A DNA stretch of 64,000 bases from positions 148,582-212,581 of the forward strand of contig NZ_CP113864.1 of the NCBI RefSeq assembly GCF_026914285.1. Reading direction: 5' to 3'. Below are positions 1 through 27,940 of this stretch, piece by piece (positions within the stretch are counted from its first letter, which is position 1; each line of letters opens with the position of its first letter). The notes under the pieces were generated by a model. It saw only the letters and a program-made list of their open reading frames with translations, was not told the origin of the DNA and searched no databases. Source of the stretch: Caldicellulosiruptor naganoensis (GTDB lineage: Bacteria > Bacillota > Thermoanaerobacteria > Caldicellulosiruptorales > Caldicellulosiruptoraceae). A program made the position numbers and the translations under genes.

Positions 1-556
1 TAAAATCCTATTGTAATATGTATACCTATTTTTGCTTCTGAATCATTTTTGGGACTTCTCAGCGGCGTAGAGTCTACTATCGCTATACTCATATCAGGTT
101 CTATTTCAGCTATTAATACATCTTTTATATCTTGCATGTATTCTTCTTCTATTTTTCTTGATAACTTTGCAAAATATGAATAGTCCGGACTTTCTTCTAT
201 ACCTACTACTTGCTTAAACTCTGTGTCTTGATTTATTCGATATTCTAATTCTCTGAAACTCTTTATCCCCTTTTTAACTTTATAAACCAAACAAGCTATT
301 ATCTGAAACAGATTAAATTTCCTCGGTCGTCCCCTTCTATTTTGCTTTATCTTCCTCGATAAAACTTCAGTAACCTTTTTATTACAAAAAGCAGCTTTGA
401 AAATTTCTCATTTTGTGATTTAATATTCATGTATATCTTTTCCCCCTTGTGTTTTTTTGTGGTTTTCTCTTAAATTAAAATTATAACACAAGGGGGATTT
501 TTTTCTTTTTTTACTGTGTTTACTCTATATGGTTATTTCTTTTATTCAACAACCCC
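1..556 (-). mobile_element. Partial copy (cut by the window edge) of a roughly 1.1-kb IS5/IS4-like insertion sequence, in inverted orientation relative to the copy at 11373..12474
   Basis: Bases 1-556 are the near-exact reverse complement of about 11376-11931. The match includes the subterminal hairpin cccccttgtgtt...aacacaaggggg and the end motif ttttattcaacaacc. Similarity stops at about 556. Confidence 0.8.
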
Positions 557-885
557 TGTTTAAAAAATTAATATTTAGACTATCATCTTTGTATAAGAAG
601 TTATCTCCTTTATTTTTTCAGCTTAATTCTATTCTCCATTCTTTACTTTCCTTATATCCTGAATTTAGTTATAGTCTACAAACAAAATTATTACAATATT
701 GTTTTTTGCTACATTTACTCTATGTAGCAATCTTTTTATTTAACAATTGGTGTATTTTTCCTATTTCCAAACTTATCATTTTAAAAACACAAGAAAATTT
801 AAGAAATTTTGAGCTATTTAAAGAAAAGTGTATTCTGAGCTCAAAATTTAGTTGAAAATGGTCTAAAAAAAAAAAAAAAACGGGA

Positions 886-915
886 TTGACAGAGTGAAAA
901 TGTATAAGATAAAAT
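886..915 (+). promoter_or_regulatory. Sigma-A-like promoter candidate (TTGACA-N18-TAAAAT) upstream of the bacteriocin ABC exporter, preceded by an A16 tract (865-880)
   Basis: ttgaca at 886-891 and taaaat at 910-915. It lies about 110 bp upstream of the ATG at 1026. Confidence 0.4.
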
Positions 916-1025
916 TTGCATAGAAATTCCAAGAAGAAATTTACAGAAAAAATAGTCCAAGTACAAAACAGACTAAATAAGATAATAAAGAAGGAAACAT
1001 ATTAAAAATCAAGTGGGATGAAGAG

Positions 1026-3230
1026 ATGAGTAAAAGATACTATTGTGTAAAGCAGCATGATATAACCGATTGTGCAGCAGCGAGCATAGCAACAATTTGC
1101 TTGCAATATGGAAAAGAAGTATCGATAGCCAGAATAAGGCAGATAGCAGGGACAGACAGGTTTGGCACCACAGCATATGGAGTTGTAAAAGCGGCAAAAG
1201 AGCTTGGATTTGAAGCAAAAGCAGTCAGGGCAGAAGCAAAAGAAGCAATATTTGAGAAGATACCACTTCCGTGTATAGCACATGTACTGATAGATGGCAA
1301 GCTATTTCATTATGTAGTAATACATGAAATAAAAAAAGAAAGGATAGTAATAGCAGACCCTGCAAAGGGAATAGTTAAGCTAAAGCCAGAAGAGTTTTTT
1401 AAAATATGGACAGGCATTTTGATATTTCTTGTGCCAAATGAGAGGTTCAAGAAAGGTAAGCAAGAGGGAGTTTTGAAGAAGTTTTTTAAACTGCTGGGTT
1501 TGCAGAAGAGCTTGATATTGAATATTTTTGCAGTGTCAGTTGTATATACCTTGCTTGGTATAGCGGCAGCATTTTATTACAAGTTTTTGATGGATGATGT
1601 AATACCAAATCTTTTGAAGAATACACTTCACGTTATAGCAGCAGGTGCGATACTGATTACAATATTCAAGGTGATATTAGGAGCATTCAGGGTAAGGCTT
1701 TTGATACATTTAAGTCAAAGATTAGATATTAAGCTGATGCTGGGGTATTATGAACATGTGATTAAGCTTCCGATGAGTTTTTTTGGTAGCAGGAAGATAG
1801 GGGAGATAATTTCGAGGTTTATGGACGCGTCAAAGATAAGGGATGCGGTATCAGGTGCAACGCTGACGCTAATGATAGACAGCATAATGGCAGTGGTAGG
1901 CGCAATTATTTTATACCTGCAAAATTCCACGCTGTTTTTTATATCGCTTGTGATGGTTTTGTTATATGCAGCAGTAGTGTTTGGATTTAACAGGGCATTG
2001 AGGGAAGCGAACAGGCAGGAGATGGAAGACAATGCAATTTTAACATCGTATTTGGTAGAGTCACTGAATGGGATAGAGGTAGTAAAGGCATTTAATATAG
2101 AAGAGGATGTAAATTTTAAGACTGAGAGCAAGTTTGTAAAGCTTTTGAAAGATGTTTTCAAGGTAGCGAATTTAAACAATTTGCAAAGTAATATAAGCAG
2201 TGCAATAGCAGCGGTAGGAGTTATAGTGATACTGTGGGTAGGTGCAGACAAGGTAATAAATGGGCAGATGAGCATAGGAGAGTTGTTTACGTTCAATGCA
2301 CTGCTTGCATACTTTGTAGACCCGATAAAAAATCTGATAGGATTGCAGCCGATGTTGCAGACGGCGATAGTTGCAGCCGAAAGGCTTAGTGAGATTTTGG
2401 AACTTGAGAGTGAGTTTCAAGGTGATGAAGACAGGAAATTATCACCCAGTTTGAAGGGAGATATAGAGATAGAGGGTTTGAACTTCAGATACGGTACAAG
2501 ACAGCTTGTGCTGAGGGATATAAATCTTAAGATAAGAAGAGGAGAGAAGATAGCGATAGTAGGTGAGAGTGGTTCAGGTAAGACCACGTTAGCAAAATTG
2601 CTTTTAGGATTTTATGATTATGAAAGCGGAGAGATAAGAATAAATGGCTATAACTTAAAGGATATAAACAAGAAGTATTTGAGGGAGAAGATAGCATATA
2701 TATCTCAAGACATTTTCTTGTTCAGTGGGACGATATTTGAGAATCTGGTGCTTGGAAACAGAAATTTAAAAATGGAAGAAGTAATTGAAGTGAGCAAATT
2801 AACAACACTGGACGAGTTTGTAGCAAAACTTCCTTTGAGATACAATACCATGATAGAAGAGAATGGAGCTAATTTGTCAGGCGGGCAGAAACAGCTAATA
2901 GCAATAACCAGGGCACTTTTAAAAAATCCTGAGATAATAATAATGGATGAAGCGACCAGTAACCTTGACTCTGTAACCGAGCAGGCGATAGGAAAGGTAA
3001 TAGAGAAGGTATGTGAGGGGATAACCACTATAATAATAGCGCACAGGCTATCTACGATTTTAAAATGTGACAGGGTTGTGGTAATGCATGAAGGCAGGAT
3101 AGTAGAGGTAGGGACACATGAAGAACTCATGGCAAAGAAAGGATATTATTATAACCTGTGGAGAGAGCAGCTGATGGGACTTGAGCAAAAAGGACTTTTG
3201 GATTCTGTTGGGAGTGCAACATTAAGATGA
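1026..3230 (+). CDS. Bacteriocin/peptide-export ABC transporter (permease plus ATPase) with an N-terminal C39 double-glycine peptidase domain (ComA/LagD type)
   Basis: The N-terminus has QHDITDCAAASIATI (C39 catalytic Cys context) and HYVVIHE...ADP (His/Asp). Six TM segments follow. Walker A is GESGSGKTT, the signature is LSGGQKQ, Walker B is IIIMDEATS. The gene is 734 aa. Confidence 0.9.
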   Translation: MSKRYYCVKQHDITDCAAASIATICLQYGKEVSIARIRQIAGTDRFGTTAYGVVKAAKELGFEAKAVRAEAKEAIFEKIPLPCIAHVLIDGKLFHYVVIHEIKKERIVIADPAKGIVKLKPEEFFKIWTGILIFLVPNERFKKGKQEGVLKKFFKLLGLQKSLILNIFAVSVVYTLLGIAAAFYYKFLMDDVIPNLLKNTLHVIAAGAILITIFKVILGAFRVRLLIHLSQRLDIKLMLGYYEHVIKLPMSFFGSRKIGEIISRFMDASKIRDAVSGATLTLMIDSIMAVVGAIILYLQNSTLFFISLVMVLLYAAVVFGFNRALREANRQEMEDNAILTSYLVESLNGIEVVKAFNIEEDVNFKTESKFVKLLKDVFKVANLNNLQSNISSAIAAVGVIVILWVGADKVINGQMSIGELFTFNALLAYFVDPIKNLIGLQPMLQTAIVAAERLSEILELESEFQGDEDRKLSPSLKGDIEIEGLNFRYGTRQLVLRDINLKIRRGEKIAIVGESGSGKTTLAKLLLGFYDYESGEIRINGYNLKDINKKYLREKIAYISQDIFLFSGTIFENLVLGNRNLKMEEVIEVSKLTTLDEFVAKLPLRYNTMIEENGANLSGGQKQLIAITRALLKNPEIIIMDEATSNLDSVTEQAIGKVIEKVCEGITTIIIAHRLSTILKCDRVVVMHEGRIVEVGTHEELMAKKGYYYNLWREQLMGLEQKGLLDSVGSATLR

Positions 3231-4627
3231 GAGAGGTAATATATGATTTTGGTGAACTTAGAGAAAGCAAGCTTTTGTATGAATCAGAGATTCCAAGGTA
3301 TGGACTTTTTATTACATATATTTTGCTTGCCTTAGTGATAGGACTTGTTTTGTGGAGTGTGGTAGGAAAAATTGATATAAATGTGAAGGTTCAAGGGATA
3401 ATAAGACCCTGGGAAGATGAAGCAAAGGTGATAAGTTATGTTGGAGGGAAGGTAAAAGAGGTTTTTGTAAAAGAAGGTGAATATATAAAGAAAGGTGATA
3501 TTTTATTTAAGATTGATGATGAGGAATATGTGAAGAAGAGGGATTTTTTGGAACAGCAACTTAGCGAATATGAGAAAAAAGTTAATGATTTAAAAGAATT
3601 GAGAAATAGCATAGAAAAAGGAGAAAGCCTCAGGAATAAAAATAATGCATACTATTTGAGGTACTTGAGCTATAGTTATGAGGTAAACAAGCTAAGAAAA
3701 GCTGCAGAAGAAGCAAGAGTGCAAAGAGAATACAGTATAATGGAATTTAAAAAGCAGATGGAGAGTTTGGATGAGAAGATTAAAAATATTAATAGATTTG
3801 AAAGCACGTTAAAAGAAGTAAAGGAAGTTGTAAGCAAAGGCGAGCAAGTTAAGCTAACGAAATACGACATAGGGTATTTGGAATTTATATTGAGTGAAAT
3901 AGAGGCTTACAATCAGCAGGTGAAGACAAAATTGGATGGTAGTAATATACAGAAGAAGATTTTAATATCGAAAATAGATTCAAAACTTGATGAGCAGAGA
4001 GAGTCAAAAAGTGAGATGATTTTGCAGAAACAGAAAATAGAAGGGCAGCTTGATTTGTTAAACATTTCGGGTGATGATACAAAAGAAGAAATTGAAAAGT
4101 ATAAGTTTGAAATGCTACAGCAGATTGATAATGAGATTAGTAATTTAAGCAGTGAAATAAAGAATTTAAAAATCAGTTTAGGTGAAACAGAGAAGTTGAT
4201 AGAAAGCTGTAATATAAGAGCGGAAAAAGATGGATATGTAGAATACAGTGCAAATCTTCTCAATGGAGCGGTGATAAATAGCGGAGCTGAGATTGGCAGA
4301 ATAGTTGGCAGTGGGTCAAGAGGATTTAGGGTTATTGGATACATACCAAACACAAAAAGCAGTGGCATAGAAAGAGGGCAAAGAGCAAAGGTAAAGATAG
4401 CAGGAGCAGATGTGTTGAAAGTATTGGAAGGGAAGGTTGTAAGGGTATCGCAGGATATAAAGGCAATAGGCCAGAGTGGGCAAGGGTTTTATGAGGTTGA
4501 GGTAGAAGTAAAGAAAGTTCCAAAAGGTATTAATTTGAGGGCAGGGCAGGCATGTGAGATGAGCATAGTGGCTAGGCAGGAGCGGTTGATTGAATGGGTA
4601 TTAAAGAAGTTGGGATTGAGGTTTTAA
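3227..4627 (+). CDS. HlyD-family secretion accessory (membrane-fusion) protein for the bacteriocin exporter
   Basis: It has an ATGA overlap with the upstream ABC gene and an N-terminal TM helix (LFITYILLALVIGLVLW). Long coiled-coil segments and a C-terminal beta-barrel-like region are present. The gene is 466 aa. Confidence 0.8.
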   Translation: MREVIYDFGELRESKLLYESEIPRYGLFITYILLALVIGLVLWSVVGKIDINVKVQGIIRPWEDEAKVISYVGGKVKEVFVKEGEYIKKGDILFKIDDEEYVKKRDFLEQQLSEYEKKVNDLKELRNSIEKGESLRNKNNAYYLRYLSYSYEVNKLRKAAEEARVQREYSIMEFKKQMESLDEKIKNINRFESTLKEVKEVVSKGEQVKLTKYDIGYLEFILSEIEAYNQQVKTKLDGSNIQKKILISKIDSKLDEQRESKSEMILQKQKIEGQLDLLNISGDDTKEEIEKYKFEMLQQIDNEISNLSSEIKNLKISLGETEKLIESCNIRAEKDGYVEYSANLLNGAVINSGAEIGRIVGSGSRGFRVIGYIPNTKSSGIERGQRAKVKIAGADVLKVLEGKVVRVSQDIKAIGQSGQGFYEVEVEVKKVPKGINLRAGQACEMSIVARQERLIEWVLKKLGLRF

Positions 4628-4637
4628 GGTGAGGCAA

Positions 4638-4668
4638 CAACCCTTTCATCAGCCGGCTGTGAGGGTTG
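4638..4668 (+). promoter_or_regulatory. GC-rich compound palindrome/hairpin (caaccct-N17-agggttg; loop contains cagccggctg) immediately 3' of the HlyD gene and about 65 nt upstream of precursor peptide 1
   Basis: A 7-bp stem is seen in sequence. There is no following T-tract, so it is not a canonical terminator. A paralogous structure lies at 5513-5540. Confidence 0.45.
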
Positions 4669-4733
4669 GGATATAGCTAAAATAAAAAATCATATTAAGC
4701 ATTCGTAAAATATATAAAGGAAGGAGGAGAAAT

Positions 4734-4994
4734 ATGGTAACTGTAATGCCAATGAATGAATTTATAAAATTGACAGAAGAGGACTTGATGATGATTGATG
4801 GTGGAGTATCTGGATGGGGAATTGCTTGTGGTGTTTTTACAATTGTAGCTGGTGCTTGTGCTGTTGTAGGTGGTGTTGCTGCTATGTTTGCCCCCGAGCC
4901 AGTTGCAACAAAAGTTGTAGGCTATTCAGCAATTGTTGGAGGAATTGCAACAATTGGTGCAGGTATTACAGGAATTATGTGGGCTTTAGAATAA
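4734..4994 (+). CDS. Class II bacteriocin precursor 1 (double-glycine leader; glycine-rich hydrophobic core peptide)
   Basis: The RBS is ggaggag. The leader ...MNEFIKLTEEDLMMIDGG is followed by a 62-aa Gly/Ala/Val-rich core, VSGWGIACGVFTIVAGACAVVGG... It lies directly downstream of the C39-ABC and HlyD genes. Confidence 0.75.
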   Translation: MVTVMPMNEFIKLTEEDLMMIDGGVSGWGIACGVFTIVAGACAVVGGVAAMFAPEPVATKVVGYSAIVGGIATIGAGITGIMWALE

Positions 4995-5180
4995 AGAAGC
5001 TTAGTTTAGTATTGAGTATTTGTTTGCAAATAATATGCAAATATTCAACTTGCACTTTTTGTGATATCAATTTATGGGCTTTTTGACACAAAGATGCTTT
5101 TTTAATAGTTTTTATAATGTTTTTATTTTTACTAATAAATTTAGCACTTTGTATTTTGTACTTTAGGCAAAGCGAAAGGA

Positions 5181-5387
5181 ATGATTATAAATATGAAAAG
5201 GAAAATAGGTAAGTTAATAATAGTGATAAGTGGTTTTGTTATTTCGATCTGTGGTTTACTAAATCTTATGATACTGGCAAATCCCACAAAAAAAGTTTTA
5301 TTTATTATAGGTCCCCTCTTGATAATATGTGGAATGATTGCAATAAAATTTGGATTTAATTTACTAAAAGGTAATAAGAATAGTTAA
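5181..5387 (+). CDS. Small two-TM membrane protein (candidate bacteriocin immunity protein)
   Basis: This is a 68-aa ORF with two hydrophobic helices, positioned between precursor genes. There is no homology evidence. Confidence 0.35.
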   Translation: MIINMKRKIGKLIIVISGFVISICGLLNLMILANPTKKVLFIIGPLLIICGMIAIKFGFNLLKGNKNS

Positions 5388-5462
5388 TTTTATTTAATGA
5401 AAATATAGAAAATATATACGTTGAATTTTTTAGTCAGAAAATGGAAAGTTATTGAGACACTT

Positions 5463-5540
5463 GATTGAATGGATATTAGAGAAATTGGGATTGAGATTAT
5501 AAGGATAGGCAACAACCTCTTTTGCGGCCGCAGGAGGTTG
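5463..5540 (+). repeat. Duplicated copy of the HlyD 3'-end/intergenic junction (paralog of 4588-4668) ending in a GC-rich hairpin (caacctc-N14-gaggttg; loop contains gcggccgc)
   Basis: gattgaatggatattagagaaattgggattgagattataaggataggcaacaacctc versus gattgaatgggtattaaagaagttgggattgaggttttaaggtgaggcaacaaccc are about 80% identical. Confidence 0.7.
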
Positions 5541-5577
5541 GGGTAGATAAAAAACAAAAAGAAAGGGGGAATCAAAA

Positions 5578-5784
5578 ATGGTAAATGAAAGTATTATTAA
5601 AAATGGATATTTTGTTGAACTTCAAAATAGTGAAATGGAAATTGTAAATGGTGGCTGGATTAACACATTTATAAATGTTGCGAAATGGACTTTTAAAGTT
5701 ATTGAGTATCTTGGCATAGTAGATGCATTACGAGAGTTTGGAAGAGGTTTTATTGATGGTTGGAATGAAGCAACACGCAGATGA
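5578..5784 (+). CDS. Class II bacteriocin precursor 2 (double-glycine leader)
   Basis: The RBS is aaaggggg. The leader MVNESIIKNGYFVELQNSEMEIVNGG is followed by a 42-aa Trp-rich amphipathic core, WINTFINVAKWTFKVIEYLG... Confidence 0.7.
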   Translation: MVNESIIKNGYFVELQNSEMEIVNGGWINTFINVAKWTFKVIEYLGIVDALREFGRGFIDGWNEATRR

Positions 5785-5818
5785 GTAATTTTTTAATTAT
5801 TCAAACTAAAAGAAGGGG

Positions 5819-6031
5819 GTGAATTTTGTGTATAAATTTATACAACTTGATGAAAGTGAAGCTTTAATAATAAATGGTGGAGAAACTCTTTTTTATGACA
5901 TTGGTAAAGCTCTAGGATATGGATTGGGTAAATTATGGAATTTCATTAGTAATCTCCCGTCATATTTTATTCAAAATCCACCTGTTGGTGGTCCGCCAAA
6001 TATCTATAGTCGCTATATATACTTTATTTAG
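5819..6031 (+). CDS. Class II bacteriocin precursor 3 (double-glycine leader; GTG start, possibly at 5828)
   Basis: The RBS is aagggggtg. The leader (M)YKFIQLDESEALIINGG is followed by a core ETLFYDIGKALGYGLGKLWNF... It is co-oriented with precursor 2 and 34 nt downstream of it. Confidence 0.6.
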   Translation: MNFVYKFIQLDESEALIINGGETLFYDIGKALGYGLGKLWNFISNLPSYFIQNPPVGGPPNIYSRYIYFI

Positions 6032-6050
6032 ATTAACAAGTATCAAGGAG

Positions 6051-6098
6051 CGACACCTTTCCGCAGAAGACGGAAAGGTGTCGTGGTTATTTAAAATT
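6051..6098 (+). terminator. Rho-independent terminator after precursor 3
   Basis: A perfect 13-bp stem, cgacacctttccg/cggaaaggtgtcg, is followed by a T-rich run. Confidence 0.8.
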
Positions 6099-6124
6099 TT
6101 ACATTTTAAGAATGGAGGATATTA

Positions 6125-6853
6125 ATGGAATACAACAAAAGCAGAGTTATAGAAGGTAAAAGCATTTTAAAATATATAGGTATTTTTTTATTCTCTAATA
6201 TAATATTACCAGGCATATTTTTTGCAATTATCTTTGGCAATGATATTCCATATATAGCTGTAATAGGTAGTATATGGAGCACTACTTTATTTTTTATAGT
6301 ATTTTGCAAAAGGGAGATAGAGACTTTATTTAATAATTCTATTTCAAAAATCAAAAGCAAACTGAATACTAAAAAGATATTATTTATTCTAATATTTGGT
6401 TTTTTGATAAATGTTATATTAAGTATTTTTGGAAGCATAATGATGTCTCAAGAAATTTCTGGCAAAAATAAAGTTTCTAATGATTTAATAAACGACATAG
6501 CTATGTATATGAAGGGCAACAATTATTTTACAAATGCAATAATGATGTTAGCAATAGTAATATCTCTTGGAATATTAGGGCCTATTATTGAAGAGGTTGT
6601 TTTTAGAGGACTTATTCTTCAAGCGCTGATGAATAAAATGAACATTGTAATGGCTATATTAATTGAGTCATTACTGTTTAGTATATTTCATTCGAATTTA
6701 TTTCAAGTTATTATTACGTTTATGTTTGGAATACTATTATCAATTGTTTGTATTCGTTTTGAGTCGATAATTGCTTCTATTATTTTACATATAGGTTTTA
6801 ATATGTCTTTTTTACTTAAAATATTATGTACAATTATTTTAAGTAAAATCTAA
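6125..6853 (+). CDS. CPBP-family (CAAX protease/Abi) intramembrane metalloprotease, bacteriocin-immunity type
   Basis: Motifs EEVVFRGL, FSIFH and HIGFN are present in a multi-TM context. Confidence 0.8.
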   Translation: MEYNKSRVIEGKSILKYIGIFLFSNIILPGIFFAIIFGNDIPYIAVIGSIWSTTLFFIVFCKREIETLFNNSISKIKSKLNTKKILFILIFGFLINVILSIFGSIMMSQEISGKNKVSNDLINDIAMYMKGNNYFTNAIMMLAIVISLGILGPIIEEVVFRGLILQALMNKMNIVMAILIESLLFSIFHSNLFQVIITFMFGILLSIVCIRFESIIASIILHIGFNMSFLLKILCTIILSKI

Positions 6854-7458: not shown

Positions 7459-8901
7459 TTAGGCAATAAGTTTTTTAAGTTTTTGAAGTTTTTTGTAAGA
7501 GATATTTTGGTGATGTTTTAGTATGGCATAAGAGAGAATAAAGAGTAAAAGCATACAAATAGCAGAGAGTAAGAAGTCAGAAAAAAGTGAAATATGGTCA
7601 TATGAGAAAATGGTATCATGACCGAGAAAAGACTTTAGATTAAAAATAGTTTGCTCGATAGTAACTCTGGATTTGTAAAGTTGATAAAACTGGTCAGAAT
7701 TTCTATCGATACCTGGATAATACCGCAGGTTGGCATCCGGGTATGTATAGAACATCCTACCTGACTTAGAAGTAGTACAAGGATGTGGGCAAGTGCAAAA
7801 GCGTTTATTGTCTTTAATCTGAGAGCAAGGGCAGCGCCATTTAATTCTTGGGGAGCGATTTTTACCATTACAAAGACCTTCGTAGATAAAAGGTTTATTT
7901 AGTTTATTACAGAAGGGTATACCGTTTTGTGAGATAGTGATGTTAGGGTCAGAGGTAGGAGTATATGAGGTTTGGTTAGAATTTCTGGGGTTAATAGGGA
8001 TTATGACTTTAGAGAAATTGAAATCTTTGATGAGAGAAGAATAGACCATGTAAGAGTCAAGAGCACTGTCGGCGATAAAGGTTGAAAACTGATTGGATTG
8101 GAAATTGTGGTTTAGGTTAATCAAAGCGGGAATAAGAGCTTTTGAATCAGAGATAGCTTTAGAAAAAGCAGGGTCTTGAGGGTCATCAGAAGAAGGACAG
8201 AAGGCAGGAGTGATTACAAGAGGTAAACCAAATCCATTAGTGATGATAGCGAATTTGTATCCATAGCAGAAATGACCATTAGCGAACATACGAGTGATAT
8301 AAGGTGAAGCAGAAGCAGATTTGGGGAGGTTTGAGTATGTGAGATAATACACAGCAGAGGAAGTAAGGTTAGGGTTTTGAGATTTAGTTTTTCTGAGCAT
8401 AGATTGGATGAACTTAGGGTTATTTTCTTTGAGCATAGGAACTAAGGCGGTTGTGTCGAATATGATGCAAGAAGCAAGATCAGGGTTTATTTCAAGTGCA
8501 ATATTTTGAGCATATTTTGCGAGGTTATAAAAGACGTTTTCGATTTCGGAGCAAAAGATTTTTCTAAATCTTGAGAATGTAGAGATAGAGGGTATAGTAT
8601 CGAAGTTGCAGAAAGATTTAAGCTGGTAAGAGTTGAGCAAGACAGCACGGAGTTGAGTTAAGGTAGAGAATTTGAAGATTTTTTGGATGAAGAAAGCACA
8701 TAACATAGATTGCAAAGAGAAGCATCTATGTTTACCGAAGTATTTATAGTAGGCTTTAAAGAAGGATTGAGGGATGAAGCTTTTGATATTGATGTATTTG
8801 TTGAAGAAGCCAAGAAGGTTATGAGGGTTATTGAGAGCGAGGTTTTTAACGTCCTCATAAAGTTCTAAAAAAGAGAGTTGTTTATTATGATTTTTAAACA
8901 T
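7459..8901 (-). CDS. Intact DDE transposase of an IS4/IS1182-like insertion sequence
   Basis: This is a 480-aa ORF with DDE-region signatures (IIFDTTAL, FIADSALDS, YQLYKSRVTIEQTIFNLKS). The element ends were not resolved. Confidence 0.65.
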   Translation of the reverse strand: MFKNHNKQLSFLELYEDVKNLALNNPHNLLGFFNKYINIKSFIPQSFFKAYYKYFGKHRCFSLQSMLCAFFIQKIFKFSTLTQLRAVLLNSYQLKSFCNFDTIPSISTFSRFRKIFCSEIENVFYNLAKYAQNIALEINPDLASCIIFDTTALVPMLKENNPKFIQSMLRKTKSQNPNLTSSAVYYLTYSNLPKSASASPYITRMFANGHFCYGYKFAIITNGFGLPLVITPAFCPSSDDPQDPAFSKAISDSKALIPALINLNHNFQSNQFSTFIADSALDSYMVYSSLIKDFNFSKVIIPINPRNSNQTSYTPTSDPNITISQNGIPFCNKLNKPFIYEGLCNGKNRSPRIKWRCPCSQIKDNKRFCTCPHPCTTSKSGRMFYTYPDANLRYYPGIDRNSDQFYQLYKSRVTIEQTIFNLKSFLGHDTIFSYDHISLFSDFLLSAICMLLLFILSYAILKHHQNISYKKLQKLKKLIA

Positions 8902-11372: not shown

Positions 11373-12474
11373 AGATTGTTGAATAAAAGAAATAACCATA
11401 TAGAGTAAACATAGAAAAAAAAGAAAAAATCCCCCTTGTGTTATAATTTTAATTTAAGAGAAAAACACAAAAAAACACAAGGGGGAAAAGATATACATGA
11501 ATATTAAATCACAAAATGAGAAATTTTCAAAGCTGCTTTTTGTAATAAAAAGGTTACTGAAGTTTTATCGAGGAAGATAAAGCAAAATAGAAGGGGACGA
11601 CCGAGGAAATTTAATCTGTTTCAGATAATAGCTTGTTTGGTTTATAAAGTTAAAAAGGGGATAAAGAGTTTCAGAGAATTAGAATATCGAATAAATCAAA
11701 ACAAAGAGTTTAAGCAAGTAGTAGGTATAGAAGAAAGTCCGGACTATTCATATTTTGCAAAGTTATCAAGAAAAATAGAAGAAGAATACATGCAAGATAT
11801 AAAAGATGTATTAATAGCTGAAATAGAACCTGATATGAGTATAGTGATAGTAGACTCTACGCCGCTTAGAAGTGCCAAAAATGATTCAGAAGCAAAAATA
11901 GGTATACATATTACAATAGGATTTTACAGGGGATACAAATTACATTTTTTGTGTACAGGTAAAGAAGAAGTAATACCACTTTTCTGGATTTTACAGAGGC
12001 AAATGAATAGACGTGCGACAAGAAGAGCTTTTGTATAGGGCATGGGGCTCTTTGGCTGTGAGATTGTATTAGCAGATGCGGGATACGATTGTAGTAGAAT
12101 AGTTTAATATAGCAAATGAGCTTAAAGTTAAATTTGTTGCCGGGATAAACAAAAGAAACATGAAAGATATAAACAATGTTAGCAATAGTTTTAAAAGCAA
12201 GAACATAAGATTTTTAGAAACTGAAGAGGGTAAAAAGTTATACAGGCAGAGAACAAAGATTGAAAGACTACTTAGCAAATTAAAAGGTGAATATAATCTT
12301 GAGAATGTAAGGCTCAAGGGATTTAGAAATTATAAAAGGTATATTGATTGGATACTAACCTGTTTGAGCAACTTCTTAGAAAGTTAGAAGGTAAAAAGTT
12401 TTCTTTCGCTTATGAATGGAATCAATAATTTATGTTTGTTTTATGCATTGCTGGTAATATTTTTTATTCAACAA
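11373..12474 (+). mobile_element. Roughly 1.1-kb IS5/IS4-like insertion sequence with terminal inverted repeats (ggttgttgaataaaa / ttttattcaacaacc)
   Basis: TIRs at 11373-11390 and 12458-12474. An internal subterminal hairpin is present. There is an inverted partial second copy at 1-556. Confidence 0.75.
11637..12387 (+). pseudogene. Degenerate DDE transposase of the IS (in-frame TAG at 12036, 1-nt frameshift near 12102)
   Basis: The N-terminal part spans 11637-12038. The LADAGYD (DDE) segment after the TAG is in the same frame. The C-terminal part, ...YRQRTKIERLLSKLKGEYNLE..., lies in the +1 frame. Confidence 0.7.
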
Positions 12475-12500
12475 CCTAATTATATAAAACATAAAAATAT

Positions 12501-13307: not shown

Positions 13308-13751
13308 ATGGTGGTGCAAATGGAATTAAGAGAAAAGAAAATAAGGCTTTTAAGGTTACTAAAAGAAGTGTCAGTCAAAATAAAAGAGGCGCTAAAGTAT
13401 AGAAGGGATGAATTTGAAATACCTGCACCTCATTGGATGATAATGGCGATGCTTGATGAAAACGGAAAAATGAAGGTGGGTGATTTGAGCAAAAAGATTG
13501 GTCTTTCAAACAGCACAGTGTCAGGAATATTAGATAAGTTGGAAGAACAGGGGTTTATTGAAAGAATTAGAAGTAATGAAGACAGGAGAGTTGTTTGGGT
13601 GCAAACAACTCAAAAGTTCAAAGAATGTCTCTACGAGCACTTCAAAGAGGCAGAAAAGCAGTTTGAAAATTTACTTAGCAAAGCAACAGAGGATGAGATA
13701 GACAAAGTGCTTGAAGGTTTTGAAACACTCAAAAGAATCTTGGAAAGATAA
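13308..13751 (+). CDS. MarR-family transcriptional regulator
   Basis: A winged-HTH segment (KVGDLSKKIGLSNSTVSGILDKLEEQGFIERIRSNEDRRVV) in a 147-aa ORF. Confidence 0.85.
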   Translation: MVVQMELREKKIRLLRLLKEVSVKIKEALKYRRDEFEIPAPHWMIMAMLDENGKMKVGDLSKKIGLSNSTVSGILDKLEEQGFIERIRSNEDRRVVWVQTTQKFKECLYEHFKEAEKQFENLLSKATEDEIDKVLEGFETLKRILER

Positions 13752-25716: not shown

Positions 25717-27940
25717 ATGCTTCAACACATAAAAGGTATGGTAAGCGATATTATATATAGAAACTTAGAAAGCAACTACACAGTGTTTGAGATACTCTGC
25801 GATGATGAGGTTTTCACAGCAGTTGGAGTTGTACCAGACATTGTAATTGGTGAAAAGGTAAAGGTGTACGGAGAGTTTTATGTCCACCCGATCTATGGTC
25901 AGCAGCTTAAAGTGTCGTACCTTGAAAAGCTTTTGCCAGAGACGAAGGATGAAATTTACCTCTACCTTTCTTCAGGTGTCATCAAAGGCATTGGGCAGAA
26001 GACTGCAAAGAGGATTGTTGATACATTTGGCGATGATACAATGAGAATTTTGCAGGAAGAGCCGGAAAAACTTTTATCAATCCGGGGCATGATCCCTGAA
26101 AAAGTTGAGAGGATAAAGAATATGTTTTCATTCCAGAAGTTTTTGAAAGACATCATGACAATATTTTCCCAGTATGGACTTTCACAAAACCATGCAATGA
26201 AACTTTTTAAATTGTATGGTTTTTCAGCTTTGGGGCTACTTTATGACAACCCCTATTTTTGCTTGATGTATTTCCAGAGCTTGACTTTAAAAAGGTTGAC
26301 AGGCTTGCATTTGACTTGGGAGTTTCACCTGACGATATGAGAAGGATTTCAGCAAAGATTGTAAATCTTTTAAACATAGGTAGCAACAATGAAGGACATA
26401 CATGCCTGCCAAAAGAAAAACTTATTTTGCATGTTTCAAAGGCGCTTGAACAAGATACAGAAAAGGTAGAAGAAGCACTTGACAGTCTTGTAAAAGCAAA
26501 GAGAGTTGTTATTGATACTATTGACGGCCTTGAGATGGTTTTTTATATGGATTTTTTGAGTGCGAAAGGTATATCGCAGAAAAAATTGTCTCAATGGTGA
26601 AAGAATACGATGACATTTTAGACATAGATGAAAGGATTTTTGAGTTTGAAAAGAAAAACAATATAGTTTTTTCTCAGAATCAAAAAAAAGCTATCAAGAT
26701 GGCCCTAACTCAAGGTGTAAGTCTGATTACAGGAGGGCCCGGTACAGGCAAGACTACGATTATAAAATGTATAATAGAGATATTTGAACAGGAAGGCAAG
26801 AAGGTTTTTCTTTGCGCACCAACTGGAAGGGCAGCAAAGAGGATGCAAGCAGCCTGCCAGAAAGAGGCAAAGACTATTCACAGACTTTTGGAAATGACTG
26901 TAACAGACTCTCAAGTATTTTTTCAAAAAGGGCCCAATAATCCTTTGAGATGTGATGTCATTATAGTTGATGAGATGAGCATGGTAGACAGCTACATCAT
27001 GTACTATCTTCTTTCTGCAACAAAAGATACAACAGGACTTGTTTTAGTTGGCGATAAAGACCAGCTTCCTTCTGTTGGTGCAGGAAATATCTTAAAAGAC
27101 CTGATAAGAAGCGATGTTGTTCCATATGTAAAGCTTACTGAAGTATACAGGCAAAGTGAAGATAGCTTTATAGTTCTAAATGCACACAGGATAAACAATG
27201 GAGAGTTTCCGCACCTTCAGAAAAACAGCGATTTTTATTTTATTCAGAAAAATTCTCAGGAGGAAATACTAAAAACAATTGTTGAACTTGTAACAAAAAA
27301 GCTACCAAACTACTTATCAGCCGACCCACTGACAGATATTCAAGTTTTATGCCCGTCTAAAAAGGGAATTGTTGGAATGTACAATATAAACAAAGTGCTT
27401 CAGCAATATTTAAATCCCAAAGATGGGTCCAAAAAAGAGGTTGTGTACAAAGAGAACACCTTCAGAGTTGGCGACAAGGTTATGCAGATTAAAAACAACT
27501 ACTCGCTTGAGTTTACAATTATTGAAGGTGAGGAGAAAGGTAAGGTCTCAACAGGGATATTCAACGGCGATATTGGGGTTATTAAGGACATTGACAGGGC
27601 AGGCGGTGCAATGGAGATTGTATTTGACGATGACAAGCTTGTATTTTACGACTTTTCGCTCTTGGATGACTTGGAACTTTCTTATGCAATGACAGTTCAC
27701 AAATCCCAAGGGTCTGAGTTTAGGTGCATTGTAATGCCAGTTGTTGAGACCTACCCGATTTTAATGACAAGAAACCTTCTGTACACAGCAGTTACGCGCG
27801 CAAAAGAGCTTGTTGTGCTGGTGGGTAAAAAAAGTGCCTTGGAGTACATGATAGCAAACCAAAAAGAGGCTATGCGATATTCAGCACTTTACGACTTTTT
27901 AAAAAGGAAGCTAAAAGATACGCAATTGCAAGCTTTATGA
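25717..27940 (+). CDS. recD2: RecD2-like ATP-dependent DNA helicase, split into 3 ORFs by two single-base frameshifts at homopolymers (T5 at 26256-26260; A6 at 26580-26585)
   Basis: An N-terminal HhH region is followed by GGPGTGKTT (Walker A), IIVDEMSMVD (Walker B) and C-terminal helicase motifs. The total length of about 741 aa matches RecD2. Adding 1 nt to each run restores the frame. Confidence 0.8.

What the first reader, a model, noticed from the sequence alone, without database searches (positions are those of the whole stretch)
4588..5540. Duplicated gene-junction module with GC-rich palindromic hairpins in front of precursor genes
About 80 bp comprising the last about 40 nt of the HlyD gene plus the following hairpin (4588-4668) is repeated at 5463-5540, directly upstream of precursors 2 and 3. 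This suggests the precursor cassette was amplified by duplication of the junction. Both copies end in a 7-bp stem (caaccYc/gRgggttg). Its loop carries a GC-rich perfect palindrome (cagCCGGctg in copy 1; GCGGCCGC in copy 2) in an otherwise 35% GC region. Neither copy is followed by a T-tract. They therefore look more like processing sites or protein-binding operators than terminators. They sit about 65 nt before each precursor ATG.
Basis: seen in the sequence. Interest (0 to 1): 0.55.

Follow-up and report, generated by a model that had tools for sequence, protein, structure and literature searches.

The report
Conserved hairpin at bacteriocin transporter–cargo junction
The repeated piece is real. 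It is a conserved stem-loop that follows the export gene (HlyD) in every related bacteriocin locus of the heat-loving genus Caldicellulosiruptor, and the second copy is the leftover tail of a lost second export gene, not a fresh duplication.

Summary
**Observation confirmed.** Window 4586-4688 (last 13 HlyD codons, stop, GC-rich hairpin, A-rich tail) recurs at 5461-5560. Identity is 81% over the first 70 nt, against 0 matches expected by chance.

**Origin.**
- The window is Caldicellulosiruptor naganoensis.
- The same junction follows every full-length HlyD in about 14 related loci.
- It comes in two hairpin alleles: A (tip CAGCCGGCTG) and B (tip GCGGCCGC).
- Copy 2 is not a copy of copy 1. 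Its hairpin and leader are 84% identical to the C. acetigenus junction but 64% identical to copy 1.
- Its 42-nt HlyD remnant still reads in frame (LIEWILEKLGLRL*), and most codon differences from intact family members are synonymous.
- It is therefore a scar of a second transporter module.
- The precursor 1 / small membrane protein cassette (about 4690-5460) lies between the two junction copies. The same gene pair occurs in unrelated metagenome loci.

**Function (inferred, not shown).**
- The lower stem is kept in 98.9% of cells, through C-G, U-A and U-G changes that work only on the sense strand.
- None of the 16 copies has a T-tract.
- Half-site spacing varies by 2-3 bp.

I favour an intercistronic RNA hairpin that directs processing or stability of the operon mRNA. 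An operator, a terminator and a recombination site are the less likely rivals. The interest is moderate.

The parts
886..915 (+). Best sigma-70-like promoter match (TTGACA-18-TAAAAT) upstream of the ABC gene. Presumed operon promoter.
   Evidence: 11 of 12 matches. This is a consensus match only.
1026..3230 (+). C39-peptidase ABC exporter for double-glycine leader peptides.
   Evidence: Peptidase_C39, ABC_membrane, ABC_tran; TIGR01193, 711 bits.
3227..4627 (+). HlyD-family accessory protein, 466 aa. It is 100% identical to a C. naganoensis protein.
4586..4627 (+). Repeat copy 1, coding part: last 13 codons of HlyD plus the stop (LIEWVLKKLGLRF*).
4628..4637 (+). 10-nt spacer between the stop codon and the stem. 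GGCAA (4633-4637) is near-invariant in all loci.
   Evidence: 97% pairwise identity.
4638..4668 (+). Hairpin 1, allele A: 8-bp lower stem, U-rich 5' bulge, 3-bp GC upper stem, CCGG loop.
   Evidence: (70.4 bits).
4669..4688 (+). A-rich tail of repeat copy 1 (GGATATAGCTAAAATAAAAA). No T-tract.
4734..4994 (+). Precursor 1: double-glycine leader, class IIb lactobin A/cerein 7B-like. Part of the inserted cassette.
5181..5387 (+). Small two-helix membrane protein (64-68 aa), a putative immunity partner of precursor 1. The pair is conserved in metagenome loci L025-L028.
   Evidence: 69% nt identity over 5188-5369.
5461..5502 (+). Relic of a second HlyD gene: 13 in-frame codons plus a stop (LIEWILEKLGLRL*). 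Codon differences from other family members are more often synonymous (3-6) than non-synonymous (1-3); against copy 1 they are 2 synonymous and 3 non-synonymous.
   Evidence: (tblastn HlyD aa 453-466).
5503..5512 (+). 10-nt spacer of copy 2, with the invariant GGCAA at 5508-5512.
5513..5540 (+). Hairpin 2, allele B: 8-bp lower stem with two base pairs swapped relative to copy 1, a UU bulge, a 3-bp upper stem and a GGCC loop. GCGGCCGC lies at 5524-5531.
   Evidence: -17.4 kcal/mol, z -3.2; 59.7 bits.
5541..5560 (+). A-rich tail of repeat copy 2. It runs into the ribosome-binding site of precursor 2.
5578..5784 (+). Precursor 2 (lactococcin G-beta-like). Ancestral cargo, collinear with L007, L013 and L017.
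5819..6031 (+). Precursor 3 (lactococcin G-alpha-like).
6050..6084 (+). Canonical intrinsic terminator: 14-bp stem plus a T-rich tail. Presumed end of the operon.
   Evidence: (-25 kcal/mol, z -5.5).
6125..6853 (+). CPBP/Rce1-like membrane protease, the usual immunity-type partner of two-peptide bacteriocins.

Best explanation
**What it is**
- The repeated module is the conserved boundary between a transporter module (C39-ABC plus HlyD) and a swappable bacteriocin cargo, in a gene-cluster family specific to Caldicellulosiruptor.
- It consists of the HlyD stop codon, a fixed 10-nt spacer ending in GGCAA, a two-tier GC-rich hairpin (allele A or B), an A-rich stretch, and then the ribosome-binding site of the first precursor.

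**How copy 2 arose**
- Copy 2 is the scar of a second, allelic or paralogous transporter module. Its ABC and HlyD genes were lost, except for the last 13 codons.
- This happened when two cargo sets came to sit behind one transporter. One set is the foreign precursor 1 / immunity cassette. The other is the ancestral precursor 2 / precursor 3 / CPBP set.
- The origin of copy 2 as a relic is shown by comparison with other loci (about 0.85 confidence on that part).

**How it most likely works (inferred, about 0.45)**
- The hairpin acts in the sense-strand RNA of a single ABC-HlyD-precursor transcript.
- It would serve as an intercistronic processing and stability determinant. An endonuclease of the RNase Y type would cut in the conserved single-stranded GGCAA-side flank, guided by the downstream stem.
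- The short precursor mRNA would then be bounded by the 5' hairpin and the 3' terminator at 6050-6084. It would outlive the transporter mRNA and give the high precursor-to-transporter ratio that a bacteriocin needs.
For: **Copy 2 is a relic, not a duplicate**
- The repeat is real and non-random.
- The organism and family are identified.
- A covariance model over 220 kb (the window plus 13 loci) finds the element once after each full-length HlyD. Only two extra copies exist: window copy 2 and L011 6968-7018.
- Window 5461-5907 is collinear with HlyD-tail/hairpin/precursor 2 in L007, L013 and L017. Window about 4690-5460 has no counterpart in those loci.
- The pair precursor 1 plus small membrane protein recurs next to unrelated transporters.
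- The relic reads LIEWILEKLGLRL*. Against the other family members its codon differences are 3-6 synonymous and 1-3 non-synonymous. Its hairpin and leader match L017 at 64/76, against 52/81 for copy 1.
- A further internal HlyD relic lies between cargo sets in L019.

**The hairpin acts as sense-strand RNA**
- The lower stem is paired in 98.9% of 92 cells. Pair 14-35 is CG in 8 sequences, UA in 2 and UG in 2. Pair 15-34 is UG in 6, CG in 4 and UA in 2. Partners slid by one column pair in only 68-71% of cells.
- RNAalifold independently predicts the same stem.
- All 13 wobble cells are U-G on the + strand. The + strand folds better than the - strand in 10 of 11 variants.
- Alleles A and B share the same architecture with different upper-stem sequences.
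- GGCAA plus hairpin is 91% identical among allele-A loci. HlyD third codon positions are 78% identical, and the next 19 nt are 62% identical.
- There is no T-tract, and no terminator-like site is predicted between the promoter-like site at 886 and the terminator at 6050.

**Precedent for the mechanism**
- RNase Y cleavage a few nucleotides upstream of a guiding stem, with stabilisation of the downstream fragment, is described in PMC5449607 and PMC11321564.
Against: - There are no transcript data. Co-transcription, cleavage and differential stability are all inferred.
- Covariation is thin. Only one pair has changes on both sides. All sequences come from one genus. 15 of 500 shuffles reach the observed covariation score.
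- At 70 C the predicted stability is only -1 to -7 kcal/mol, against -11.9 for the real terminator.
- Some 20-codon windows of third positions are as conserved as the hairpin, at 0.93.
- Downstream cargo sets in L019 have no hairpin, so the element is not needed by every precursor cassette.
- The perfectly palindromic loops (CCGG, GGCC) are not required by an RNA hairpin.
- The presence of RNase Y in this genus was not checked.
Confidence: 0.5

Rival explanations
1. DNA operator. The inverted repeat would be the binding site of a dimeric regulator that switches on a precursor promoter overlapping or just downstream of the palindrome.
For: - The tips, including the 4-nt loops, are perfect palindromes (CAGCCGGCTG, GCGGCCGC).
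- A TAnA motif sits 2-4 nt after the stem in all copies and could be a weak -10 box.
- The L011 orphan copy stands in front of lanthipeptide-like precursors without a recognisable HlyD tail.
Against: - The distance between the CAACC and GGTTG half-sites varies: 19 nt in allele B and 21-22 nt in allele A.
- The invariant 5' flank GGCAA has no mirror image on the 3' side.
- Arm asymmetries are almost all U-G on one strand (13 cells, against 1 C-A cell), which a protein site does not require.
- The 'TAnAnn' box usually lacks the final T, and the -35 position falls in GC-rich hairpin sequence.
- No two-component, Rgg, LytTR or XRE regulator lies in or next to the loci.
Confidence: 0.12
2. Atypical leaky terminator, or a 3'-end protector. 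The hairpin would end or stabilise the transporter (ABC-HlyD) transcript rather than serve the precursors.
For: - The element is tied to the HlyD 3' end, at a fixed 10 nt after the stop. It occurs once per HlyD and is absent before other cassettes.
- It is a GC-rich stem in AT-rich DNA.
Against: - None of the 16 copies has a U-tract. The locus's own terminator has one and is twice as stable.
- Precursors lie 37-65 nt downstream with no room for a separate promoter. Stopping transcription there would starve the cargo genes.
- A 3' protector would raise the transporter relative to the precursor, which is the opposite of what is needed.
Confidence: 0.15
3. Recombination site or hot spot. The junction or hairpin would act at the DNA level as the place where cargo cassettes are exchanged, by homologous or site-specific recombination or by hairpin-promoted breaks.
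For: - Homology between loci ends within about 5-30 nt after the hairpin.
- All four combinations of hairpin allele and cargo leader exist. L014 is A with cargo 1, L023 is B with cargo 1, L013 and L007 are A with cargo 2, and L017 and window copy 2 are B with cargo 2.
- L014 and L017 are identical over the 60 nt upstream of the hairpin that were compared, and differ from the hairpin onward.
- Two independent loci (the window and L011) keep an extra junction at a cassette joint.
Against: - No integrase or dedicated recombinase lies in the loci.
- Other cassette boundaries lack the element.
- No hybrid A/B hairpins were seen.
- The mosaic pattern is also what ordinary homologous recombination in the conserved transporter genes would give.
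Confidence: 0.08
4. No function of its own. The hairpin would be conserved only because it hitch-hikes with the homogenised transporter genes. Copy 2 would be intact only because the truncation is recent.
For: - Some third-position windows in HlyD are as conserved as the hairpin.
- The relic's mostly synonymous differences indicate a recent truncation.
- L019 lost its second junction without consequence.
Against: - Pairing is maintained through compensatory and wobble changes in 91 of 92 cells.
- Two sequence-different alleles have the same two-tier architecture.
- Conservation drops sharply from 91% to 62% at the 3' foot of the stem.
- The L011 orphan is intact while its upstream flank is unrecognisable as HlyD.
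Confidence: 0.12

Closest known systems
RNase Y processing sites guided by a downstream stem (S. aureus saePQRS; cggR/gapR-gapA in B. subtilis and S. aureus)
   Same: - An intercistronic position in a co-oriented operon.
- A stable G-C-containing stem a few nucleotides downstream of a short conserved single-stranded stretch with G residues.
- In the known cases, cleavage destabilises the upstream part and stabilises the downstream part, which shifts the expression ratio within the operon (PMC5449607, PMC11321564).
   Different: - Cleavage here has not been demonstrated.
- The stem is shorter: 8 + 3 bp, against 24 bp in sae.
- The organism grows near 70 C, where the stem is only marginally stable.
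- There is no sequence similarity to the known sites.
Intergenic stem-loops in lantibiotic and bacteriocin operons, such as the one after nisA and other structural genes (from general knowledge, not checked here)
   Same: A GC-rich hairpin sits between the precursor gene and the machinery genes, and is used to set their stoichiometry.
   Different: - In those operons the hairpin follows the precursor and acts as a leaky terminator or 3' stabiliser.
- Here it precedes the precursors, follows the transporter genes and lacks a U-tract.
Mosaic bacteriocin-immunity regions behind a conserved transporter, such as the pneumococcal blp locus (from general knowledge, not checked here)
   Same: - A conserved ABC transporter module with a hypervariable, recombining set of precursor and immunity cassettes.
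- Relics of lost genes at the joints.
   Different: Here the boundary is marked by a specific conserved hairpin with two interchangeable alleles.
Rho-independent terminator
   Same: A GC-rich stem-loop downstream of a stop codon.
   Different: - There is no U-tract in any copy.
- The downstream sequence is A-rich.
- Co-oriented genes follow within 37-65 nt.

Membership tests
Intrinsic (Rho-independent) terminator | GC-rich stem-loop | tested here: met
Intrinsic (Rho-independent) terminator | Run of T (U) immediately after the stem | tested here: not met
   The scan does not call either hairpin. All 16 copies are followed by G/A-rich sequence.
RNase Y-type guided processing site / 5' stabiliser | Conserved base-paired structure a few nt downstream of a single-stranded site, on the sense strand | tested here: met
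   98.9% of cells are paired, all wobbles are U-G on the + strand, and RNAalifold predicts the same stem.
RNase Y-type guided processing site / 5' stabiliser | Lies inside one transcript (co-transcription of the flanking genes) | tested here: inconclusive
   No terminator-like site lies between 886 and 6050, and no convincing promoter lies at the junction. These are consensus scans only.
RNase Y-type guided processing site / 5' stabiliser | Mapped RNase-dependent 5' end and a longer half-life of the downstream fragment | not testable with these tools
   Needs 5'-RACE, EMOTE or Northern blots.
RNase Y-type guided processing site / 5' stabiliser | RNase Y encoded by the organism | not tested
   Not looked for. 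It is expected for Firmicutes from general knowledge only.
Dimeric-regulator operator | Symmetric half-sites at fixed spacing | tested here: not met
   The spacing is 19 nt in allele B and 21-22 nt in allele A. The GGCAA flank is not mirrored.
Dimeric-regulator operator | Positioned on a promoter, with a cognate regulator nearby | tested here: not met
   No -35/-10 pair is called at the junction. No regulator gene lies in the loci. The MarR gene at 13308 lies outside the IS-bracketed locus.
In-place segmental duplication | The two copies are each other's closest relatives | tested here: not met
   Copy 2's hairpin and leader match L017 at 64/76 and copy 1 at 52/81. The hairpin alleles differ.
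Integron attC-like cassette site | A site at every cassette boundary, plus an adjacent integrase | tested here: not met
   The model finds no copies at other cassette boundaries. No integrase is present.
Dispersed REP/MITE-like repeat | Many copies scattered through the genome | tested here: not met
   In 220 kb the element occurs only at HlyD ends plus two relic sites. Whole genomes could not be scanned.
Rfam families | Match to a curated covariance model | tested here: not met
Class II (double-glycine leader) bacteriocin locus | C39-ABC exporter, HlyD-type accessory protein, GG-leader precursors and immunity genes | tested here: met

The most novel reading that the evidence does not exclude
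The junction hairpin is a dedicated docking or exchange site for bacteriocin cargo. It would be a conserved DNA or RNA element that both marks and promotes the swapping of precursor/immunity cassettes behind a shared transporter. Its two interchangeable alleles are built around rare restriction-type palindromes (CCGG; GCGGCCGC, which contains GGCC, a site at 0.47 of its expected frequency in this window). These could serve as break points for restriction-stimulated or hairpin-stimulated recombination.
Probability: 0.06. Interest if true: 0.7.

Novelty: new member of a known kind. Interest (0 to 1): 0.35.

Why it matters
- The finding shows how these thermophiles build multi-bacteriocin loci. 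Different cargo cassettes are stacked behind one transporter, and a recognisable junction scar is left behind.
- It identifies a genus-wide, structurally conserved non-coding element at the point where precursor and transporter expression must be uncoupled.
- If the hairpin does direct mRNA processing or stability at 70 C, it would be a compact, portable part for tuning gene ratios in engineered Caldicellulosiruptor operons.
- It would also be an example of guided RNA cleavage in a thermophile.
- If it does nothing, the finding is still a clean case of a gene relic that could be misread as a duplication.

Tried and rejected
**Searches that gave nothing**
- Both genome-contig scans returned nothing: the HlyD protein and a 23-base junction pattern. 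A genome-wide census of the element was therefore impossible.
- Rfam gave no relevant family, at the gathering threshold over the whole window or at E <= 1 on 4400-6200.
- tblastn found no ABC or HlyD remnants upstream of copy 2 beyond the last 14 residues, and none upstream of the L011 orphan.
- No regulator was found near the locus.

**Readings considered and rejected**
- A sigma-70 promoter reading of the junction. The TAnA motif after the stem lacks the final T in most copies, and the -35 position falls in the GC-rich stem.
- A sigma-54 reading of GGCAAC. The GG-to-GC spacing is wrong on inspection of the sequences.
- A Shine-Dalgarno-like stabiliser (GAGGTGA overlapping the stop). It is present only in some loci and absent in copy 2 and in the orphan.
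- An alternative pairing of the HlyD tail (GAGGTT) with the 5' arm. It is not conserved in copy 2.
- Tandem duplication or amplification of a precursor cassette. The cargoes are unrelated, and copy 2 is closer to L017.
Full report
**1. The observation**

The repeat finder reports 4586-4655 vs 5461-5530 (70 nt, 81% identity) and a continuation at 4664-4688 vs 5536-5560 (76%). The two blocks are offset by a 3-nt length difference in the loop (alignment).
- A 35-nt degenerate pattern taken from the HlyD-tail part matches only these two places in the 64-kb window, with none expected in 100 shuffles.
- Hairpin 1 spans 4638-4668 and hairpin 2 spans 5513-5540. Each has an 8-bp lower stem, a short U-rich bulge on the 5' side, a 3-bp GC upper stem and a 4-nt loop (CCGG or GGCC).
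- The two lower stems differ by two swapped base pairs (CAACCCT/AGGGTTG vs CAACCTC/GAGGTTG).
- Neither hairpin is followed by a T-run, so neither is called by the terminator scan. That scan does call the strong terminator at 6050-6084.
- One detail is wrong. The gap from stem to ATG is 65 nt for copy 1 but 37 nt for copy 2.

**2. Context**

- The window is Caldicellulosiruptor naganoensis. The HlyD protein is 100% identical to a protein of that species, and the same locus is found on its assembly.
- The gene order on the + strand is as follows:
  - a promoter-like site at 886-915;
  - the C39-ABC exporter at 1026-3230;
  - HlyD at 3227-4627;
  - hairpin 1;
  - precursor 1 at 4734-4994 (lactobin A/cerein 7B-like);
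  - a 64-68-aa two-helix membrane protein at 5181-5387;
  - the HlyD-tail relic and hairpin 2;
  - precursors 2 and 3 at 5578-6031 (lactococcin G beta/alpha-like);
  - the terminator at 6050-6084;
  - a CPBP protease gene at 6125-6853.

**3. The element in related loci**

- HlyD homologues at 77-91% identity exist only in Caldicellulosiruptor/Anaerocellum genomes and in metagenomes. Some genomes carry several paralogues.
- I fetched about 14 distinct loci. Every full-length HlyD is followed by the same junction: the stop codon, a 10-nt spacer ending in GGCAA, the hairpin, an A-rich stretch, and then the ribosome-binding site of a precursor gene.
- The hairpin comes in two alleles.
  - Allele A has the tip ATCAGCCGGCTG. 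It is found in window copy 1 and in most loci.
  - Allele B has the tip GCGGCCGC. It is found in window copy 2, C. acetigenus L017, C. obsidiansis L023 and the L011 orphan.
- A covariance model built from 12 distinct variants was searched over 220 kb. It finds the element once per HlyD, plus just two extra copies: window copy 2 (59.7 bits) and L011 6968-7018 (52.1 bits). The next best hit scores 16 bits.
- The element is therefore not a dispersed repeat. It is also absent from other cassette boundaries, such as those in L019.

**4. What copy 2 is**

- Window 5461-5907 is collinear with HlyD-tail/hairpin/precursor 2 of L007, L013 and L017. Those loci have the order ABC-HlyD-hairpin-two peptides-CPBP-ABC2, which is the window's order without precursor 1 and its partner.
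- Window about 4690-5460 has no counterpart in any Caldicellulosiruptor locus fetched. However, the gene pair precursor 1 plus small membrane protein recurs in metagenome loci L025-L028, beside an unrelated transporter.
- The 42-nt relic still reads in frame as LIEWILEKLGLRL*. It differs from the other intact family members by 3-6 synonymous and 1-3 non-synonymous codons.
- Its hairpin and leader match the C. acetigenus junction at 64/76, but match copy 1 at only 52/81.
- Copy 2 was therefore not copied from copy 1. It is what remains of a second transporter module after its ABC and HlyD genes were lost. The alternative wording is that a foreign cassette recombined in at the junction.
- The same kind of event recurs elsewhere.
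  - L011 has an extra allele-B hairpin in front of lanthipeptide-like precursors. In L006 those precursors directly follow a full HlyD and its hairpin.
  - L019 keeps an internal HlyD fragment (aa 225-273, E = 5e-9) between two cargo sets.

**5. The junction as a module boundary**

- Homology between the window and other loci stops 5-30 nt after hairpin 1, at 4673-4699.
- All four combinations of hairpin allele and cargo leader occur.
- L014 and L017 are identical over the 60 nt upstream of the hairpin that were compared, and differ from the hairpin onward.
- Recombination therefore reshuffles transporter, hairpin and cargo around this point.

**6. Is the hairpin selected, and at which level?**

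- The 8-bp lower stem forms a standard pair in 91 of 92 cells. Sliding the partners by one column drops this to 68-71%.
- Pair 14-35 is C-G in 8 sequences, U-A in 2 and U-G in 2. Pair 15-34 is U-G in 6, C-G in 4 and U-A in 2.
- RNAalifold predicts the same stem on its own.
- All 13 wobble cells are U-G on the + strand, so they would be C-A mismatches on the other strand. The + strand folds better than the - strand in 10 of 11 variants.
- Alleles A and B share the same two-tier architecture with different upper-stem sequences.
- GGCAA plus hairpin is 91% identical among allele-A loci. HlyD third codon positions are 78% identical, and the 19 nt after the stem are 62% identical.
- There are several caveats.
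  - Only one pair shows changes on both sides.
  - All the sequences come from one genus.
  - Some third-position windows reach 93% identity.
  - At 70 C the predicted stability is only -1 to -7 kcal/mol, against -11.9 for the real terminator.

**7. Mechanism**

- A terminator is excluded as the canonical kind. No copy has a U-tract, and the cargo genes follow within 37-65 nt.
- An operator is unlikely.
  - The spacing between half-sites varies by 2-3 bp.
  - The invariant GGCAA flank is one-sided.
  - No promoter hexamers fit.
  - No regulator gene lies in these loci.
- The best fit is an intercistronic RNA hairpin in a single ABC-HlyD-precursor transcript. No terminator-like site lies between 886 and 6050. 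The hairpin would direct processing or differential stability.
- The closest documented mechanism is RNase Y cleavage a few nucleotides upstream of a guiding stem. In saePQRS this destabilises the upstream fragment and stabilises the downstream one, and similar rules hold for gapR/cggR (PMC5449607, PMC11321564).
- This step is inference. No transcript ends were available.

**8. Novelty and verdict**

- No Rfam family matches.
- A literature search for Caldicellulosiruptor bacteriocins returned no title or abstract about this element.
- I file it as a new member of a known kind, namely operon-internal stem-loops and gene relics in mosaic bacteriocin loci.
- The 'amplification by duplication' reading is replaced by 'relic of a second transporter module'.
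- 'Not a terminator' is upheld, and 'processing site' is favoured over 'operator'.
- The interest is moderate (0.35).

Noticed in passing
window 1-512 and 11415-12494 (L010 3002-4082 and 14987-16066): The whole bacteriocin locus is bracketed by inverted repeats of about 1.08 kb that are 98% identical. They carry transposase fragments, which gives a composite-transposon-like arrangement.
   Followed up: partly
window 7459-8901 (-): An IS transposase gene (DUF772 / DDE_Tnp_1) lies between the CPBP gene and the ABC2 permease/ATPase genes. It is absent at this position in L013 and L017.
   Followed up: no
L001 4702-6472 and L002 4702-6464: A paralogous HlyD occurs in C. naganoensis (on another contig of the same genome) and in C. 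morganii. It is preceded only by the last ~100 codons of the C39-ABC gene. Upstream lies a different M50 / FtsX / ABC system. This paralogue therefore lacks its own full exporter.
   Followed up: partly
L019 11016-11162: C. changbaiensis keeps an internal relic of a second HlyD (aa 225-273, 53% identity, E = 5e-9) between two cargo sets. No junction hairpin is kept.
   Followed up: yes
L011 6968-7018: An orphan allele-B hairpin without a recognisable HlyD tail lies 28 nt upstream of lanthipeptide-like precursors and a LanM gene. A perfect TATAAT box sits about 25 nt upstream of it.
   Followed up: partly
window 4903-4976: Three 21-nt periodic repeats lie inside precursor 1, in the glycine- and alanine-rich part of the mature peptide (family D2).
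   Followed up: no
whole window: Some palindromic tetranucleotides are under-represented relative to a Markov expectation: CTAG at 0.07, GATC at 0.29 and GGCC at 0.47. The pattern is consistent with restriction-site avoidance. GGCC forms the loop of hairpin 2.
   Followed up: no
L025-L027, about 1-5100: In these metagenome loci the pre1/immunity homologues lie downstream of C39-peptidase gene fragments interrupted by group II intron reverse-transcriptase genes.
   Followed up: no
window 25717-26340 and 26594-27940: A RecD2/YrrC-type helicase appears split into two ORFs: the OB/HHH N-terminal part and the AAA/SH3/UvrD_C part. This may be a frameshift or an insertion.
   Followed up: no
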